A stretch of 64,000 bases of DNA from Carcharhinus longimanus. Lineage: Eukaryota. Position 1 is the stretch's first letter; every line of letters starts with the position of its first letter. This document shows positions 4,570 to 59,779 of this stretch, piece by piece. Location: the NCBI GenBank assembly GCA_030264375.1, contig JASCQW010000130.1, positions 33,034,791 to 33,098,790 on the forward strand, given 5' to 3'. Both the position numbers and the translations under genes were made by a program. A model generated the notes under the pieces. It was not told the origin of the DNA. It did no database searches and saw only the letters and a program-made list of their open reading frames with translations.

Positions 4570-5805
4570 ACTATACTTAGAGCTCCTCGTTTATCTCCAT
4601 GATTCCACAGTTCTAAATTTCTAGCTCGGTAACAATGAGATGTTAACTTGTTTATTTGCTGGGAGCTGGGTTAATTTTTAAAGGGGTTGAACTTTGTGCC
4701 TAATCTCAGTCTCATATTTCAAAGTGATAAGGTTGCACTTAAACGAAAGGAGCTAAAATGATGTCATGGAGACCGAAGGGTGGCAGAAGGCGAGGGAAAT
4801 AAGGAAGGGAAAAGAAAAGGAGCAGAAAACGAGGAGGAGGGAGAGAACCCACGACGTGAGGTGGAGAGGAGGAGCAGACGGAGAGAGAGAGGAGGTTGGA
4901 AGGATGAGAGGGTGAGGGTCAAAAGGGAGTTAGTGTTGCATGGTGCCCATGCATTTGGCAGTGTTAAGCCTAATATGCCACATTTGAAGCTCTATTAGCC
5001 TGCCTACTCACCTCACGGAAGGAACGTTGACAAACTGCGATGAAGCAACAGTTTGGGTTGAGTGACAGTTTGAAAAGAAGCAGTTCACACACCATTTAAT
5101 ATTCAGTGCTGGAATTGTTTTCCTGCATGCTGATGCCGTCGTTCTCAATTCCAGTTTTCAGGGATGTTCTGAGTCCCCCCTCACAAGCAGCAACCTGAGT
5201 TCTAACGCAGGCCAGATGCACATCTCACATTCCTGCAGTTTTAATCTTTGCTACTTCATTCAAAGCCAATTTCCTTTTTTTATATAAAAAAAGAACTTAT
5301 TTACAAATGGATATTGCCCTACCCTGACTGGAGAACTTGTATTCACACTTCGTACTTGTCACAGGGTGCTGAAGCACGACTGTACAACGAGGGAAAGTGG
5401 GAGGAGGAGGAGGAGAAGGGGTTGCCTGCTGGCCTTGTTTCCATGGTATTCCCTGTTGAACATTTGAATGCTGTATTGTTCGTATGCAAGCCAGAGCCTT
5501 GAAAAATCTCGGTACACCTGAAACTGTGACAACGGACTGAATTCCTTTACGCTCCTGAATTGGATGTCTTAAGGGGAAAAACATCAAAAGAAAAATCTTT
5601 TCCCGAAATTTGTCTATGTGAGGTGAAGGGTGGTTTAAAATAATTTTGCTGCTATCTAGCTGAAAGCCCAGACTGACACTGCCACATTCTGGGGATGAAT
5701 TAATACTCTTTAGGAAGCATGCAGGCAGCACCCAGTGGAGAATTTATGTGGTGCTTTTCACATCTCAATACTCACTAGGCCTGAACTTCCTCCAGAAGGG
5801 ATAGT
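4570..5805 (+). promoter_or_regulatory. Putative intragenic promoter and 5' UTR of a short SHANK3 isoform (intron-16 equivalent)
   Basis: About 1.2 kb with no recognisable transposon, directly upstream of the alternative ATG at 5806. It has a purine-rich tract at 4770-4930 and TATATAAAAA at 5281. The call is positional inference. Confidence 0.4.
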
Positions 5806-6058
5806 ATGAAGAAGTTTGCTTCCACGCGTAGTTTGAACAAGATCCTCCAGCAGTGTGGTGATTCCTGTCATGATTACGACGAGATACAGGCAGTGGAGAA
5901 AAAATGGCATCTGCACATCGGGGGTGCTAGAAAGGTCCTGGGCAGAAAATCAAACCTCTCGTCTCTTTTTATTACAGCCCCACCGCCCCCGAAGAGAGCG
6001 CCAAGTACCACCCTGACTCTCCGTTCCAAATCTATGACTGCTGAACTTGAGGAGCTTG
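5806..6058 (+). CDS. SHANK3: SHANK3 alternative first coding exon: 57-aa unique N-terminus running into exon 17 (Shank3e-like)
   Basis: ATG at 5806 with A at -3 and an in-frame upstream TGA at 5782. The frame MKKFASTRSLNKILQQC...WHLH...SSLFIT is open and continues into APPPPKRAPSTTLTLRSKSMTAELEEL. Donor GTAAG at 6059. Confidence 0.8.
5978..6058 (+). CDS. SHANK3: SHANK3 internal exon (mammalian exon 17 equivalent), 81 nt, phase 1-1
   Basis: Acceptor tctttttattacAG (5976-77) and donor GTAAGA. Encodes (A)PPPPKRAPSTTLTLRSKSMTAELEEL, the post-PDZ SHANK3 segment. Confidence 0.97.
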
Positions 6059-6869
6059 GTAAGATAACCCTCATTTATTAATACAGTGTACTTTGTGATT
6101 TATAGATCTGTCAACTGGTTATTCACTGCATGCGTTATTCTATGGCCTATTTTGTATCAGTGTCAGGTCCAATACATCGATGGTACATAGTGGGTAAAGA
6201 GGATCAATTCACTCCTGGCTGGCACAGTATACCTTACGTGTGTCTTAAGTATCATGCCCTGTACCTTATTATATCTCAGGATTTGGACTTCACTGGCAAG
6301 GCCATCATTTAATGTCCTGTGAGGTAATGTTTGTGGGCCTTCTCCATGAGCCACAGTCTGCATTGTTATGGCTACCATGAATTGTAATGTGTTTTTTTGC
6401 TGATTGACTTGCAAGTCAAAAAACATCAGGATTCAGCCAAACTGAGCCTGAAATGAAATGGAGGCCAGACCTGGTAACAGTGATAGGATTGCTTGCCCAG
6501 CGAACAAACTGGATGAAACAAAATGATTACTTCTGCCTCATTCTTTACTATTTCTGATGCCAAGATAGCTGTTTCTGTACTTATTCATACAGGGTAAACG
6601 GGGAAAATTTACTACTTCCAATACCACGTGACTTGTGTGCTTCAAAATCAGTTCCAGTATGTCCAGCTATCGAAAAGGATGGGCTAAATGCCCATGAAAG
6701 TTTGTCCCTTGAGTAAGCTAATGTCATAGCCCCTCCCTCTGACACCCTAACTCTTTGATGACAGTCCTTAACTCTCTCATCAATGTCTGTGCAAGTAGTA
6801 CTGTAACAGTACAATCGAATTCTGTCCCTCTAATACCTCAAACAATGCCAGTGTAGCCTCTCTAATCAA

Positions 6870-17358: not shown

Positions 17359-17382
17359 CCTCTGTACGCAGAAGGAAAACGG
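17359..17382 (+). CDS. SHANK3: SHANK3 24-nt microexon (mammalian exon 18 equivalent), (A)SVRRRKT(E)
   Basis: ttcttttctttccaAG|CCTCTGTACGCAGAAGGAAAACGG|GTAAGT. Phase 1-1 and frame-preserving; corresponds to mammalian ASIRRRKG. Missed by the ORF track. Confidence 0.93.
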
Positions 17383-31260: not shown

Positions 31261-31270
31261 TTTGTTTTAG

Positions 31271-31398
31271 AAAAATTGGATGAGATCCTTGCAGCAGCTG
31301 ATCGCTCAGCCAGGACGGAGAATGTGGCAGCAGACTCCCGAGCTGCGACGGTCAAACAGCGGCCTACAAGCAGGCGTATCACGCCAGCAGAGATCAGT
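31271..31398 (+). CDS. SHANK3: SHANK3 internal exon (exon 19 equivalent), 128 nt, phase 1-0
   Basis: Acceptor tttgttttAG and donor GTGAGA. Encodes (E)KLDEILAAADRSARTENVAADSRAATVKQRPTSRRITPAEIS. Confidence 0.96.
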
Positions 31399-45490: not shown

Positions 45491-45661
45491 ATTTTTATCT
45501 GATTGTACTTCTGTGAAATATCTTGGGATGTTTCACTACATAGAAGGAGCTCTGAAAATCCAAATTGTTGTCACTCAGCCTGCTGTTGAGTTTCATATAA
45601 ATCAATTCCAGTGTTCACTGTTCTTCTCCCATGAATATTTGTCTATTTCCTTTTCTTTCAG

Positions 45662-45767
45662 TCACTATTTGAGCGTCAAGGTATGCCTTCAAAGTCAACG
45701 CCACCGTCTGTACCAGAGAAACCACACATCTCAATGCCAAGAGGAATGTCAAGGACAAAATCTATAG
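45662..45767 (+). CDS. SHANK3: SHANK3 internal exon (exon 20 equivalent), 106 nt, phase 0-1
   Basis: Acceptor tttccttttctttcAG and donor GTAAGT. Encodes SLFERQGMPSKSTPPSVPEKPHISMPRGMSRTKSI(G); this frame is not shown in the ORF track. Confidence 0.95.
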
Positions 45768-46669
45768 GTAAGTTTATCATGTTAACTTGAAGTATTTGAA
45801 TCTCACTCCCCAGCAGTTCAATTAATAAATTCTTGGGCCGATGTGGAAGTGGTCAATGTGGGACTTTCAGATCTCAAGATCAATCTCCTGCCAATACCAA
45901 GTTACATCACATCGACCAGGGCAATAGGAAAGATCTTAGAGTTGGTCTATGAGGAAAGAGCAGGAGAAAAGTCTATTTAGCACCCCTTCCCCTTCTAAAA
46001 AGAGTAGATTTCTGGATGGATGCTGGGCAGTGGTGACCTCTGAAGTAGAACAGCCCAGACACACTGCCTAGGCTCTTACATGGCTCACTGGGGGTCAGTA
46101 CAACAGAGTGGAAAAGGAGGGGTGGGGGGAATGGAATAAATAATCTGACAGTGTTGTTAAAACTCCTGGTTTGTTTTAGCTCCTCAGGTATCATATAGTT
46201 GAATCATATTCATTTTTATTAACACTGACGTATAACATTTTCCAGTGAGATTTCAGATTTATTTACTTTTGATTTAGTTTGCTCTCCCCTCCCCTGCCTG
46301 CCACTTCGCACCTCCATGTGAGCTTTGACAGTTACCTGTTCAACTGTGCCCATCATTGCCAGCTAAACCCATCTTGTCCTCACTCAGCATCTAGACATGG
46401 ATTTCCAAACAGCTATCATTCAGTCATGACCAGGACAGGGTGCCCTTGGTGATTCTTCTTTCCTGCACTCTGAACAGCCCTACACAGGGACACATGGAAC
46501 AAGAAAGTACAGGAATCAATTATAAAACTTCCATAAATCCTTCAATATTTTGGGGGGGGGACCAAAATCATTGATTGAATAAATTGCTGCTCAAAATTAA
46601 AGACAAAGAGGTCAGGACTGCCATCGCCATACAAGATGCCAAAATTCAAAAAGCGCAGGAGGACTCTGT

Positions 46670-54849: not shown

Positions 54850-55180
54850 CCCACTCCAGGGCTTGAGCATATCATACAGACTGACACCTTACTGCAATGT
54901 GAGGGAGTGTCGTGCTGTTGTAAGTGCCTTTTTCACCTACCTGTTGCTATGATTCAGTTGAGTGCCGCAGCATAAGTAGAAGAAAAGTAAGTTCTGCAGA
55001 TGGCATGACTCACCAAAACATCAAAGGTGAAAGACTCACTATCTACACTGTTTGTAGGGCCTTGCTGTGTGCAAACATGGCTGCTAGATTTGCGTACACA
55101 GTGATATTCACTACTTTCTAAATAATTCATTGCCTGCCAAACCTTTTACTGAAAGATTCGTCAGGGTGCATGTAAATTAT
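54850..55180 (+). mobile_element. Deu-domain SINE ending about 25 nt before the exon-21 acceptor
   Basis: GAGGGAGTGTCGTGCTGT...CTTGCTGTGTGCAAACATGGCTGC core and tail. Confidence 0.6.
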
Positions 55181-55205
55181 GAGGTGCTTTTGTCATGTAT
55201 TTCAG

Positions 55206-57566
55206 GAGCCTCTGAAGATGATAAACTGTCAGTCTCAGCCTTGGAGGGAAGGTTTTCACGCAGCACGTCCATGCAAGATACTCTTCGGGAAGGACTGGGT
55301 ATACCTCCACCTCCTCAGATAGCCCCGCCCCCACCACCCTCCTCATATCTTTTAGATACGGGCCCTCCTCCTCCTTTCTCCCCACCCCCACCCCCAGGAC
55401 GAACTTATGACAATGTACGTTCCAGCTTTAAGCCCAACACCGAAGCGAAAATTCATGGGGGGCAGCAGGCGGTGACGACAGCGGAGGTCTATGAGCCAAG
55501 TCGGACTCCTCTGCCTCCAGTAGAAAGGCAGAAAAGAGCCAGGTCAATGATAATCTTGCAGGATTCGTCCTACTATCCCGTAGAACCAACAGACATACCC
55601 TGGCCCAGTCCCTCACCAACCCCTCAAGAGAAAAGCAAACGGAAGGCTAAGATGGTCGACAACCCATATGCAAACGTGGGCCAGTTCAATGTGGGCCTGT
55701 TTGCACCAACAAAGCCACTTCGTAAGAAAAGCCCTCTGGTCAAGCAGTTCCAGGTTGAAGACGCAATAGAGAGAGCATCAGCAGCTGGTTCCTCTGTGGC
55801 TGGCAAGGAGTTAGTGGCAAGGAGGATAGCGCAACACTCTGGAAAGGAGTATGAGCAGCAGCAGAGAGAGGGAATCAGCAAAGCGCAGGAGGACGGACAA
55901 GATCTGACCAGCCCTTTTTCTGTCGCCATTGCAGGAGCAGTACGGGACCGAGAAAAAAGGTTGGAAGAGAAGAGGAAATCAACAGTCTTCCTTTCTGTAG
56001 GTGCCATTGAAAGCGACACAGCACCCAACATCCCAGCTCTGCAACAGTCCAGGTCAGTTGACGAGAGACTACTGAGTAGCAGCGACAGGTCTCTCCGATC
56101 GCCAATCCCTTCACCTGTACCCTCTTCAAGACCACCAGCAAGCACACCTGTGACTTTTATACATCCCCTCACAGGAAAGCCGCTGGATCCCAACTCACCA
56201 CTGGCACTTGCGCTGGCCGCAAGACAGCGGGCACTGGTCGCTGAAACACAGCATCAACGGGCGGCTGGGAGCAGTGAAACCTTAAAAGCTCAGGAGAGAA
56301 ATGCCCCTCTGTACATGGAGAGTCACAGCAAAGAGGCAAAGAAAGCAGAAATTGAGGGCCTCACATCGCCTCCCTTCTCTCCAGAGGACAAAGCGGTCTA
56401 TAGTCCAACATCTGGGGTGCCAGTAACCGCAAAACACCAGTGGGGAACTCCTACCACTATGAGGAAAGAAATAGAAAGTAGACCAGGGCAGATAGAGAAA
56501 TCAGAACGAGAAGAGAAGAGAGTGGAAGAGAAAAAGAGTATGCTTATCAACATAGTGGATACATCACAACAGAAAACAGCAGGCCTACTGATGGTCCACG
56601 CAACGAGTAATGGACAAGAATCAGAACTTCAAGAAACTCCAACACCTGCCTTGAAGCCATCATCACCACAGCCTCAACCGTCCCCTACTGAGACACAAGC
56701 TTCTCAGCCACCCAGTGTTGTTTCTGAGCCTCCTCCGCCTACTGAAGCACCTGGGAAAACCCAAACTCAAGGAAGTTCTGATGAAGATGTGGAGCCATTT
56801 GCCATTTCTCTTCCTCCACTACTGTCCTCAAGTGACGAGGAAACAAGAGAGGAACTTGCAAAGATTGGGCTTGTGCCACCTCCTGATGAGTTTGCAAATG
56901 GCATCTTCATCCAAGCCGAGGCTGAAAAAACTGCCAGCCATCCCAGTAGACCTCCAATTGCAGCACCTTCAACTACTGGCATTTCACCCTCAGGGAAGCC
57001 TTCAGATGCCCCACCTTCAGAAGCAAGTGTGGACTCGGGTGTAGAAGAAATTGACACAAGAAGCAGTAGTGATCATCACCGTGTCACCATGCCGNNNNNN
57101 NNNNAAGCACGATTTCAACTGTCTCCAGCATGTCCACATTATCATCAGAGAGCGGCGAGCCCTTGGACACATACACATCATTTGCTGATGGACAGACCTT
57201 CATACTCGAGAAGCCTCCAGTGCCTCCAAAGCCAAAGCTAAAGTCCCAACTCAACAAAGGGCCAGTCACATTCAGGGACCCTCTCTTGAAGCAGACCTCA
57301 GACAGTGAGCTTGTTGCCCAACACCAACCGTCCGCGCTGCCCCCCGGCGTAGGACGGTCTCGCTACCTCATACAGAGAAAGTCCAAGTTGTGGGGGGATG
57401 CTGTTGAGCCCAGGCCCATTCAGATGGTTGAGGGCAGCAAACCCACTGTAATAAGCGAGCTGAGCTCCAGGCTGCAGCAATTGTCTAAGGATACTCACTC
57501 ACTCGGGGACGAGCCGTCAACAGCCTCTCTTGAGATAGGAAAGAGGTCACCTGTTGTCACTGCACG
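55206..57566 (+). CDS. SHANK3: SHANK3 large proline-rich exon (exon 21 equivalent); contains a 10-N gap with an apparent artefactual frameshift
   Basis: Acceptor tatttcAG (55204-05) and donor CG|GTAAG. SHANK3-type blocks include RSTSMQD, RQKRARSMIILQDS, STVFLSVGAIE and SSSDEETREELAKIGLV. It carries the Homer ligand PPDEF (56879-56893) and the cortactin ligand KPPVPPKP (57211-57234). Confidence 0.97.
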
Positions 57567-59779
57567 GTAAGGCCAAATTACCAATTTCTTAATGTAGAAG
57601 TGTTTTCTCAATGCCCCAGAAACATGATCATTTTTCTCAGTAATAATTCCAGAGCTTAATATTAAAAGTGAACTTCTGTTTAGTTATTCTAAGGTTAATG
57701 TTTCCTGGTGTGAGCACCATTCCCAGTGCATTTAACTCAATAGATAGTGTTTTCAGTTCATGAAGATAGAGTGATAAATGAGACAATTGCATCCCCTGTC
57801 CTCAGGGTATACTGACTGACAAGTTTCAAAGATTTTCAAATTGATATTCGGAAAGAAAGGTTGTTGCACTAAATTGTTTCTGAAGAGAGTCTGTGTAAAA
57901 GTTAATGAGGGCTACTACCAAATTAGGCAAATTTTAAATTGCAATTGCTTGATGATTGTGCAAATATTTCTCTTTCATTTGAGGATTGTAGAAGCTGGAA
58001 CTGTGAATATGTAAGACAGAAAACAGTGAGCGCACACAATGCTATAGGGAAACAAGAATCATATTAATCACCTGCACCAGACCTCAGAATCTGCTTTACA
58101 GAATCAGACCAAAGCATCAGGAGGCATTTAGTGACAGGACCTGGGCAGAGTTCCTAGTGTTGTGTTGTGTTGCACAAACCTTACTGCTAAATGGATTTCT
58201 CCCTCACCTTCTGCCTTACCTTCTTTCTTTCCCTACCCCACCTCCCAGGCAGGTAAATCAACACAAACGTCCCTTATATAACCAATTAACTAACCTCTTT
58301 CAAAACTTTCCCTCCAAATACTTTATGGTGGTCAGGCCCAACCCACTGGTTATTACCCAAAATCGAACTTTGCCTCAGCCATGTTCTTGTAGTTTCCTGA
58401 ATAGTGTCTAAAATATAATACTTGCACAACCAACATTAATTCAGTTTAAAATGGTGGACTTAGTTGTGTCCAGCTGACTTATCTCAAACAATCTATCCTC
58501 CTGTATGTTATCTTTACTCATGTTTAGCACCTGAATCAGAACCCTTCACCATTTACAACTCTCCAACAAATTCAAAACCCCCCACAGCATGAAACCAATC
58601 ACTACTGATAAATATGTGTGTCAGCGATCATCCTCATTGCCTTTCTCTGTATGTAATTTAGCAACAATGTCCTTAAGATGAGGGAAGCAAAACTGTACAC
58701 AAAACTATAGACATCAAGATCTTACTTAAACATTATGTAGAGTGCCATGTATGGCTCAAATGGTAGCAGAAGTCTCTGTGAGTCAGAAGATAGTGAATCT
58801 CACTCCAGAGACTAAAGCACACAGAAATCTAGGTTAACACCCTAGTGTGATACTGAGAAAATGCTTCGACAGTGTCTGGGGTGCTACAGATACACTCTCC
58901 ACCCTATTCCAAACCATGTGATCTTCTGGTAGAGCTGAAAAACTTTTAAAAACGCACACTAATTTACAGGTGAAATGTGGAAAATGTCTTCCGAACCACA
59001 CTAGAAACCCAAATCAGTATGATCTACCGAGTTTCCCTGAGCTTGTTTTCCAATAACATCTTCAAATATCAAATCTGCTTTACCAATCATGACCTCTGCT
59101 TCCTGAAACTGAGCTTAGTAATCACAAGTTGATAATTGCTAGTTGTGAGCATCCTTTTTCAACGAAGAAATTGCATGCACTTTCCACTGAAATCATCTGG
59201 TGCTACGAAGGCTCTTGGTGAAAGATTTAAAATATTTGCTAGTGCCTCATCAACACCCTCAGCCATTTCCTTCAGCACCTTTCTCCAGCTTCACCACCTT
59301 TAAGGAACCTTATGCAGTCTTCCTTGAGATGTGTAAATGACTCATTTGAGTATTAGTTTCATCTAAAAAATGATTATGATTACATTACTTTGGAGAAAAT
59401 CCAGTAGAAGACAACTGAAAGGCACCCTATCTATCCCACTGCAGGAATAAAACACATAACCTAAGCTGGAAATTCCAGTGTAGTACTAAATGCCACACTG
59501 TTGTGGGTTTTCGGACCTCAGAGTCAATTTATCTAGATCAGCATCAAAAATCCCCTTGCACTGTTCAAAGTACAGCAGCTATCCAAATGTGGAGCAGGGA
59601 GAGAGGGGAAGTCTCCCTATATTATGAGTACATGGAACCTGCATCATAGATGAAACATGTACCATAGCCAAATCAGACATTCCTTCCCAGCAATGGGCTG
59701 TCTAAGTCAAAGCTGTGATTAAGGCTTACGTTAATGAACAAAAAGTAATTTCTTTAACTGCATCTCGCTGTTGGTTTTA

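What the first reader, a model, noticed from the sequence alone, without database searches (positions are those of the whole stretch)
5806..5977. Intron-encoded 57-aa alternative N-terminus of SHANK3 apparently conserved from shark to mammal
Seen: an ATG with a good -3 purine and an upstream in-frame stop opens 57 stop-free codons (MKKFASTRSLNKILQQCGDSCHDYDEIQAVEKKWHLHIGGARKVLGRKSNLSSLFIT) that run in frame through the exon-17 acceptor. The polypyrimidine tract therefore doubles as coding sequence. From memory, the mouse Shank3e isoform starts MKKFASSRSLNKILAQC...QAVERKWHLH... with the same length. Inference: a PDZ-less isoform has been under protein-level selection since the origin of jawed vertebrates, so this little-studied peptide may be a functional module (basic amphipathic helix plus a WHLH motif).
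Basis: partly seen in the sequence, partly recalled or inferred. Interest (0 to 1): 0.75.

Follow-up and report, generated by a model that had tools for sequence, protein, structure and literature searches.

The report
Shark copy of Shank3E start peptide
The end of a SHANK3 intron in this likely shark genome encodes the same 57-residue start that the known mouse brain isoform Shank3E carries, and versions of it are kept in fish, reptiles, birds and mammals, so it is an ancient piece of a known isoform whose own job, possibly anchoring the protein at synapses, is untested.

Summary
Observation confirmed; the thing is a known isoform start. ATG 5806 opens 57 codons that read in frame across the exon-17 acceptor (AG 5976-5977) of SHANK3. 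An open stretch like this precedes 41 of 1902 YAG sites in the window by chance, so conservation is the real evidence. The peptide is 54/57 identical to a whale-shark gene model, 37-38/57 to three sauropsid proteins, 32/57 to mouse Shank3 isoform 9 (Shank3E), and 20-26/57 to seven named teleosts. Published mouse mass spectrometry contains three Shank3E-specific peptides, one spanning the acceptor. In one of four presumed RNA runs a contig crosses the whole ORF unspliced into exon 17. Residues 1-38 are conserved (27/38 with mouse), residues 39-57 hardly (5/19). WHLH shrinks to W in teleosts. No SHANK2 counterpart was seen. dN/dS could not be run. Likely role (about 35%, inferred): an N-terminal anchor for the PDZ-less scaffold. 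Not found in my paper searches: its reach to sharks and teleosts, and an upstream exon (4732-4911) whose splicing removes the ORF. The scan held no earlier SHANK3 note.

The parts
5806..5976 (+). 57 codons encoding the Shank3E-type alternative N-terminus (intronic in full-length SHANK3)
   Evidence: homologues; mouse MS peptides map to window 5842-5871, 5872-5901, 5959-5994
5782..5784 (+). nearest upstream in-frame stop (TGA)
5951..5977 (+). polypyrimidine tract and AG acceptor of exon 17, overlapping the last codons of the peptide
   Evidence: acceptor used in the X6 joint, and X1 and X3 contigs begin there
5978..6058 (+). SHANK3 exon 17 (mouse numbering), proline-rich start shared by full-length and E forms
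   Evidence: mouse peptide RAPSTTLTLR mapped to exon 17; spliced to 31271 in X1 and X3
4732..4911 (+). upstream exon in intron 16 (first exon or cassette), stop-containing in the SHANK3 frame; its donor GTGAG at 4912 splices to exon 17 and removes the 57-codon ORF
   Evidence: X6 joint 4910->5977 GT..AG (one contig, depth 2.7); X1 contig 4732-4911 ends at the donor; frames
4912..5805 (+). leader/intron retained in the ORF-containing RNA; 21 upstream ATGs in 4732-5805
   Evidence: X3 contig 5057-6005 plus 297 loose upstream letters; ATG count
17359..17382 (+). 24-nt micro-exon 18 (basic, ASVRRRKT), skipped in X1 and X3 contigs
   Evidence: skipping
31271..31398 (+). next constitutive SHANK3 exon (approximate 3' end from tblastn)
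45662..45768 (+). following SHANK3 exon (boundaries read from the sequence, approximate)
55206..57567 (+). large proline-rich SHANK3 exon, interrupted by a 10-N assembly gap near 57095

Best explanation
This stretch encodes a 57-residue peptide matching the start of mouse Shank3E, and is likely translated in this shark-like fish from an intron-16 promoter whose RNA reads straight through the exon-17 acceptor, giving a PDZ-less SHANK3 whose new N-terminus possibly serves as its own anchor. Steps: (1) shown in mouse by papers, inferred here: transcripts start in intron 16/exon 17; (2) shown for a related species by one contig: RNA runs unspliced from at least 750 nt upstream across the ORF into exon 17; (3) shown in mouse by MS, inferred in shark: ATG 5806 is used, making peptide + proline-rich region + SAM, without ANK, SH3 and PDZ; (4) inferred: residues 1-38 are under purifying selection as protein; (5) inferred, about 35%: the free MKK start, the basic amphipathic helix 7-17 and Cys17 hold the PDZ-less scaffold at the membrane or a partner in place of the PDZ-GKAP link, with Cys17 a candidate S-acylation site; (6) inferred from two low-depth contigs: splicing 4911->5978 removes the ORF and would switch the form off.
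For: Identity: named hits 'Isoform 9 of SHANK3, Mus musculus' and 'Shank3e splice variant III/IV'; 32/57 ungapped, no gaps into exon 17; whale-shark model 54/57. Translation in mouse: three E-specific peptides in PMC11412912 supplements, one spanning the acceptor. [quoted passage not shown] RNA in a relative: X3 contig 5057-6005 at depth 62.6 meets a spliced exon17-to-31271 contig at 112.8, with no cover at 6074-6207. Frame: of 145 proteins with the SHANK3 exon-17 signature, 137 have an M-K/T-K start 54-69 residues upstream in frame, 89 of them at exactly 57; X3 shows 11 indel events in 5057-5805 and none in the ORF (P about 0.10). Pattern: residues 1-38 conserve 27/38 with mouse against 5/19 for 39-57 (Fisher P 0.002), i.e. 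the part under splice-signal constraint is the least conserved as protein. M1 K2 K3 kept in 29/29 amniotes and 7/7 teleosts, C17 in 28/29 and 4/7. Predicted helices 7-17 and 21-44.
Against: No dN/dS: no orthologous DNA could be fetched. Substitution test only P 0.03-0.14 across seven non-independent comparisons, and not significant by count of conservative changes. Protein databases return only intact frames, so the frame tally is biased. Only 1 of 4 runs laid covers the ORF; those runs are contigs and RNA is a guess. 21 upstream ATGs lie in 4732-5805, hard to reconcile with simple scanning if that is the only start; contigs cannot show starts. Teleost versions are only 20-26/57 identical and 3 of 7 named ones lack C17. 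Structure model is low confidence (pLDDT 64, pTM 0.22); no Pfam, PDB, fold or Atlas match supports any function. EGFP-Shank3e did not visibly co-localise with PSD-95 in cultured neurons (PMC4113141).
Confidence: 0.85

Rival explanations
1. The sequence is conserved as a DNA or RNA element (promoter-proximal element, splice regulator); the peptide is translated but is a passenger with no function of its own.
For: No dN/dS available; substitution test weak; simulated uniform divergence reaches the observed protein identity at about 78-83% nucleotide identity, a level conserved non-coding elements can reach (own knowledge); teleost peptides drift to 20-26/57.
Against: In those simulations 65-76% of runs acquired a stop; the MKK start is invariant; 4-8 of the changes need two or more base changes in a codon against about 2-3.6 simulated (P 0.02-0.17); indels gather upstream of the ATG but not in the ORF.
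Confidence: 0.2
2. The peptide is a calmodulin-binding, IQ-like module (I27-Q28-x-x-x-K/R32, W34, basic tail) that makes Shank3E calcium-sensitive, rather than a membrane anchor.
For: The pattern [FILV]Qxxx[RK] (consensus recalled, from no call) is present in 82 of 88 shark/amniote-type extensions; predicted helix 21-44; net charge +6 over residues 32-57 in all four sequences checked.
Against: Only 3 of 46 teleost-type extensions match; Q28 is K in 7 of 7 named teleosts; the full IQ consensus Gly and second Arg are missing; no Pfam IQ hit; the pattern is short and common.
Confidence: 0.15
3. In sharks the ORF-containing RNA is mostly an unproductive retained-intron species, and Shank3E protein is made mainly in amniotes.
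For: Leader with 21 upstream ATGs; X6 shows the splice that removes the ORF, X1 has a contig ending at that donor and no cover of the ORF.
Against: ATG, length and sequence are kept between the window and whale shark (54/57) and with amniotes; X3 contig depth over the ORF is about half that of exon 17 and intron 17 is uncovered, which argues against generic pre-mRNA (contig depth is a poor measure).
Confidence: 0.1

Closest known systems
Mouse Shank3E (UniProt Q4ACU6-9 and -10; Shank3e splice variants III/IV, A0A088DEG1/A0A088DEG2; P0155, P0152, P0146)
   Same: 57-residue N-terminus starting MKKFAS, in frame with exon 17 without gaps, 32/57 identical (27/38 in the first part); same PDZ-less layout; micro-exon 18 also present and skippable.
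   Different: Residues 39-57 differ (5/19); promoter position, protein product and tissue are not shown for this species; an extra upstream exon at 4732-4911 that splices out the ORF was seen here and not in the passages I read for mouse.
Whale shark gene model g24430.t1 (EukProt, P0022)
   Same: 84-residue single-exon model equal to this peptide plus exon 17, 54/57 identical in the peptide.
   Different: Unnamed automatic model, not linked to SHANK3 or Shank3E by its source.
Teleost shank3 models with an MKK-starting extension (Lates, Menidia, Nothobranchius, Pogonophryne, Dissostichus, Poecilia, Oncorhynchus)
   Same: Same position, frame and MKK start; N11-K12, S20, V30, W34, G39, L45, L54 kept in 7 of 7.
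   Different: 54-68 residues, Ser-rich insertion before the acceptor, no WHLH or IQ-like pattern, 20-26/57 identity.
SHANK2 at the equivalent exon
   Same: Nearly the same proline-rich exon (signature TTA instead of STT).
   Different: None of 23 SHANK2-type proteins has an MKK-starting extension; best alignment score 30 against 52 or more for SHANK3 extensions.

Membership tests
SHANK3 (versus SHANK1/SHANK2) | Exon-17 signature and downstream proline-rich region match SHANK3 | tested here: met
   Exon 17 identical to named SHANK3 proteins and distinct from named SHANK2 ones; large exon 61-64% identical to sauropsid SHANK3
Shank3E isoform | Own N-terminus homologous to Q4ACU6-9, in frame with exon 17 | tested here: met
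Shank3E isoform | RNA that runs from intron 16 through the acceptor into exon 17 and splices onward | tested here: met
   One related species only: X3 contigs 5057-6005 and 5976-6058 joined to 31271; contigs, RNA is a guess; 1 of 4 runs
Shank3E isoform | Transcription start in intron 16 (promoter 5), not at exon 1 | not testable with these tools
   Contigs cannot show starts; exon 16 was not found in the window. Shown for mouse in PMC4113141 and PMC11328446
Shank3E isoform | Protein product detected | not testable with these tools
   Shown for mouse striatum by MS in PMC11412912 supplements; no shark proteomics at hand
Shank3E isoform | [quoted passage not shown] | tested here: inconclusive
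   Proline-rich exons found to 57567; the SAM exon was not hit inside the window. Full-length relatives P0017, P0155 carry SAM and no PDZ
Protein-coding sequence under purifying selection | dN/dS below 1 | not testable with these tools
   No orthologous DNA fetched; indirect tests P 0.02-0.17 and indel contrast P about 0.10
IQ calmodulin-binding motif | [FILV]Qxxx[RK]Gxxx[RK] consensus (recalled) and Pfam IQ match | tested here: not met
   Only the first half matches; no Pfam family at E up to 10; half-pattern lost in teleost type
SHANK-family-wide alternative N-terminus | Paralogous extension in SHANK2 | tested here: not met
   0 of 23 SHANK2-type proteins with an MKK extension, 6 of them spliced and uninformative; one (P0111) scored 30, z 4.0
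SHANK-family-wide alternative N-terminus | Paralogous extension in SHANK1 | not tested
   No SHANK1 sequence came back or 62

The most novel reading that the evidence does not exclude
The Shank3E peptide is an ancient, free-N-terminus-dependent synaptic anchor (MKK start, basic amphipathic helix, acylated Cys17) that lets a PDZ-less SHANK3 reach synapses, switched on and off by retention or removal of the intron 4912-5977. An N-terminal EGFP tag would mask it, which would explain why EGFP-C1 Shank3e failed to co-localise with PSD-95 while Shank3E1 expressed apart from GFP rescued spines; and variants in these 171 'intronic' bases of an autism gene would be overlooked coding variants.
Probability: 0.2. 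Interest if true: 0.65.

Novelty: new member of a known kind. Interest (0 to 1): 0.3.

Why it matters
The isoform is known, but papers I read treat Shank3E as just 'proline-rich + SAM' and give its own 57 residues no role (PMC4113141 passages, PMC11412912 discussion). Conservation from sharks to mammals, strongest in residues 1-38, says where to mutate. Shank3E survives PDZ-exon deletion in Shank3B mice and rescues synapses when re-expressed (PMC11412912), so a function for its N-terminus bears on interpreting autism mouse models, on N-terminally tagged constructs, and on reading patient variants that full-length annotation would call intronic.

Tried and rejected
Own genome not held; two metagenome scans for orthologous DNA found nothing, so no dN/dS. 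Pfam: 0 families for 3 proteins. PDB by sequence: 2 weak hits at E 1.6 and 4.1, rejected. Foldseek PDB: 0 matches on a low-confidence model. ESM Atlas: no usable hit. Three repeat-rich hits (P0023, P0034, P0036) are unrelated chance matches. Runs X1, X2, X6 have no cover over the ORF; this is no evidence of absence. Of 15 runs listed only 4 were laid. The contig pile at 6266-6317 is a short repeat. The 22t/32t transcripts were considered as the literature name and dropped: the passages read do not tie them to this start. The SHANK3 mention in PMC11317171 is a human-only upstream ORF, not this peptide. A complex prediction was not sent: no partner sequence was at hand. No amphibian, coelacanth, lungfish, chimaera or lamprey name appears among hits; many hits are unnamed, so this is not absence. 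Paper searches for the peptide or its deep conservation found nothing relevant.

Full report
Observation. The sequence is as described. ATG 5806 has A at -3 and A at +4; in-frame stops lie at 5776-5778 and 5782-5784; 57 sense codons run to 5976 and continue through the acceptor AG (5976-5977) into exon 17 (5978-6058), which ends at a GTAAG donor. The last 25 bases before the AG are 76% pyrimidine and are coding in this reading. By itself the open frame is ordinary: 41 of 1902 YAG sites in the window have an ATG-started open stretch at least this long upstream in the same phase.

The gene. tblastn of three sauropsid SHANK3 proteins places exons at about 5806-6060, 31270-31398, 45656-45772 and 55169-57567; neither the PDZ exons nor the SAM exon were hit inside the window. 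A 24-nt micro-exon matching mouse exon 18 lies at 17359-17382. The exon-17 signature is that of named SHANK3 proteins and not of named SHANK2 proteins. The source is not given; 54/57 identity to a whale-shark gene model makes a cartilaginous fish likely.

Relatives. Three word-seeded searches and one exhaustive search returned the peptide from birds and reptiles, mammals and, with a profile, mouse 'Isoform 9' and 'Shank3e splice variant III/IV', bonobo, marsupials and teleosts. Against mouse isoform 9 it is 32/57 identical without gaps, 27/38 in residues 1-38 and 5/19 in 39-57. In an alignment of the window with 37 named proteins (1 shark, 29 amniote, 7 teleost; two further teleost models without a usable start or exon-17 match were left out), M1 K2 K3, K12, S20 and L54 are kept in all, W34 in 28/29 amniotes and 7/7 teleosts, C17 in 28/29 and 4/7, and H35, L36, H37 in 27-28/29 but 0/7. 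Of 145 fetched proteins with the SHANK3 signature, 137 have the start 54-69 residues upstream; the other 8 are spliced, truncated or gene models that join into the peptide. This tally is biased because only intact frames enter protein databases. None of 23 SHANK2-type proteins has such a start; one scored weakly (30, z 4.0) against 52 or more for SHANK3 extensions. SHANK1 was not tested. No named amphibian, lobe-finned fish or jawless fish appeared.

What is known. [quoted passage not shown] PMC11412912 (passages, discussion, supplement 6 whole, rows of supplements 4 and 7) lists three Shank3E-specific MS peptides, mapped to Q4ACU6-9/-10; they correspond to window 5842-5871, 5872-5901 and 5959-5994, the last crossing the acceptor; Shank3E1 re-expression rescued spines in Shank3B-/- neurons. 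PMC10641957 (passages) reports a SHANK3e band in human brain regions. PMC8152369 (passages) describes S685 phosphorylation and ABI1 binding; that S685 lies in exon 17, right behind the peptide, is recalled and comes from no call. Searches for the peptide itself or for its conservation in sharks or fish found nothing relevant; the library lacks most subscription papers, and figures and several supplements were not seen, so this is not proof that it is unpublished.

RNA evidence. Four of 15 listed runs were laid on 4600-6600; all are contigs and RNA is a guess. In X3, a related species, one contig (depth 62.6) covers 5057-6005, i.e. 750 bases of leader, the whole ORF and the acceptor unspliced, and has 297 further upstream letters that resemble the window; a second contig (112.8) covers 5976-6058 and joins to the exon at 31271; 6074-6207 is uncovered, which fits processed RNA. 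Its 11 indel events all lie upstream of 5783 (P about 0.10 on its own). X1, X2 and X6 do not cover the ORF. X6 has one contig (depth 2.7) spliced GT..AG from 4911 to 5978, and X1 has a contig 4732-4911 ending at that donor. That upstream exon has stops in the SHANK3 frame, and its best-context ATG (4766) opens a 70-codon frame that overlaps the next in-frame Met at 6034, so the spliced form would likely make little or no SHANK3. Whether it is a first exon or a poison cassette cannot be told. The 21 upstream ATGs in 4732-5805 remain unexplained if the only start is near 4730.

Selection. dN/dS could not be run. In simulations of uniform DNA divergence to the same protein identity, 65-76% of runs gained a stop; observed changes were more conservative than simulated (mean BLOSUM P 0.03-0.14 over seven non-independent amniote comparisons, not significant by count of positive pairs, no signal for whale shark) and more often needed two base changes (P 0.02-0.17). 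Identity in residues 1-38 to sauropsids (31/38) exceeds that of the large proline-rich exon (61-64%). Together this makes protein-level selection likely, not proven. The SLF near the end is confounded with the pyrimidine tract.

Mechanism. Best reading (0.85 for identity and origin): an intragenic promoter yields an RNA in which exon 17 is extended 5', and its ATG gives Shank3E. For the peptide's own role I commit to an N-terminal anchor (about 0.35): charge runs +4 (1-17), -5 (18-31), +6 (32-57); residues 7-17 have a hydrophobic moment of 0.72 (shuffle P 0.0125; 0.61 and P 0.12 in a mammalian copy) and end at Cys17; AlphaFold gives helices 7-17 and 21-44 at low confidence. No database match supports a function. 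That pEGFP-C1 puts the tag on the N-terminus is own knowledge; that the rescue construct left the N-terminus free is read from one passage listing Shank3E1 and GFP as translation products, without seeing the construct map. Rivals: passenger peptide on a conserved DNA/RNA element (0.2), calmodulin-binding IQ-like module (0.15), unproductive retained intron in sharks (0.1).

Verdict. Real, and a new member of a known kind: the likely shark orthologue of the Shank3E N-terminus. What adds to the record is its depth of conservation, the split between a conserved 1-38 and a loose 39-57, the loss of WHLH in teleosts, and a splice that removes the ORF. Interest 0.3.

Noticed in passing
window 4732-4911: Unflagged 180-nt purine-rich exon in intron 16, spliced GT..AG to exon 17 in one contig (X6) and ending at the same donor in X1; stops in the SHANK3 frame; first exon or poison cassette not resolved.
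   Followed up: partly
window 17359-17382: 24-nt basic micro-exon matching mouse Shank3 exon 18, skipped in the X1 and X3 contigs.
   Followed up: partly
window 57095-57104: A 10-N assembly gap inside the large proline-rich exon shifts the apparent frame; likely an assembly artefact.
   Followed up: partly
window 5355-5600: Low-depth contigs from X1 and X2 cover this part of intron 16 at high identity (0 and 2 other letters); may be a conserved non-coding element or a further start region.
   Followed up: no
proteins P0088, P0089, P0092, P0108: A second exon-17 variant (signature STS), likely the other teleost shank3 copy, shows no extension in three intron read-through ORFs; one duplicate may have lost Shank3E.
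   Followed up: no
proteins P0035 (Hirundo), P0033/P0067 (Bos): Some amniote copies are degraded in the conserved core (swallow lacks C17 and W34; cattle differs around residues 31-37), either sequencing error or relaxed selection.
   Followed up: no
proteins P0014, P0020, P0150, P0173, P0174, P0177: Automatic gene models splice upstream or PDZ exons into this peptide, making longer or 'full-length' SHANK3 with the insert; likely annotation artefacts caused by its coding signal.
   Followed up: no
window 6266-6317 and N-flanked repeats across the window: Short interspersed repeat drawing many unrelated contigs; similar repeat copies flank several N gaps.
   Followed up: no
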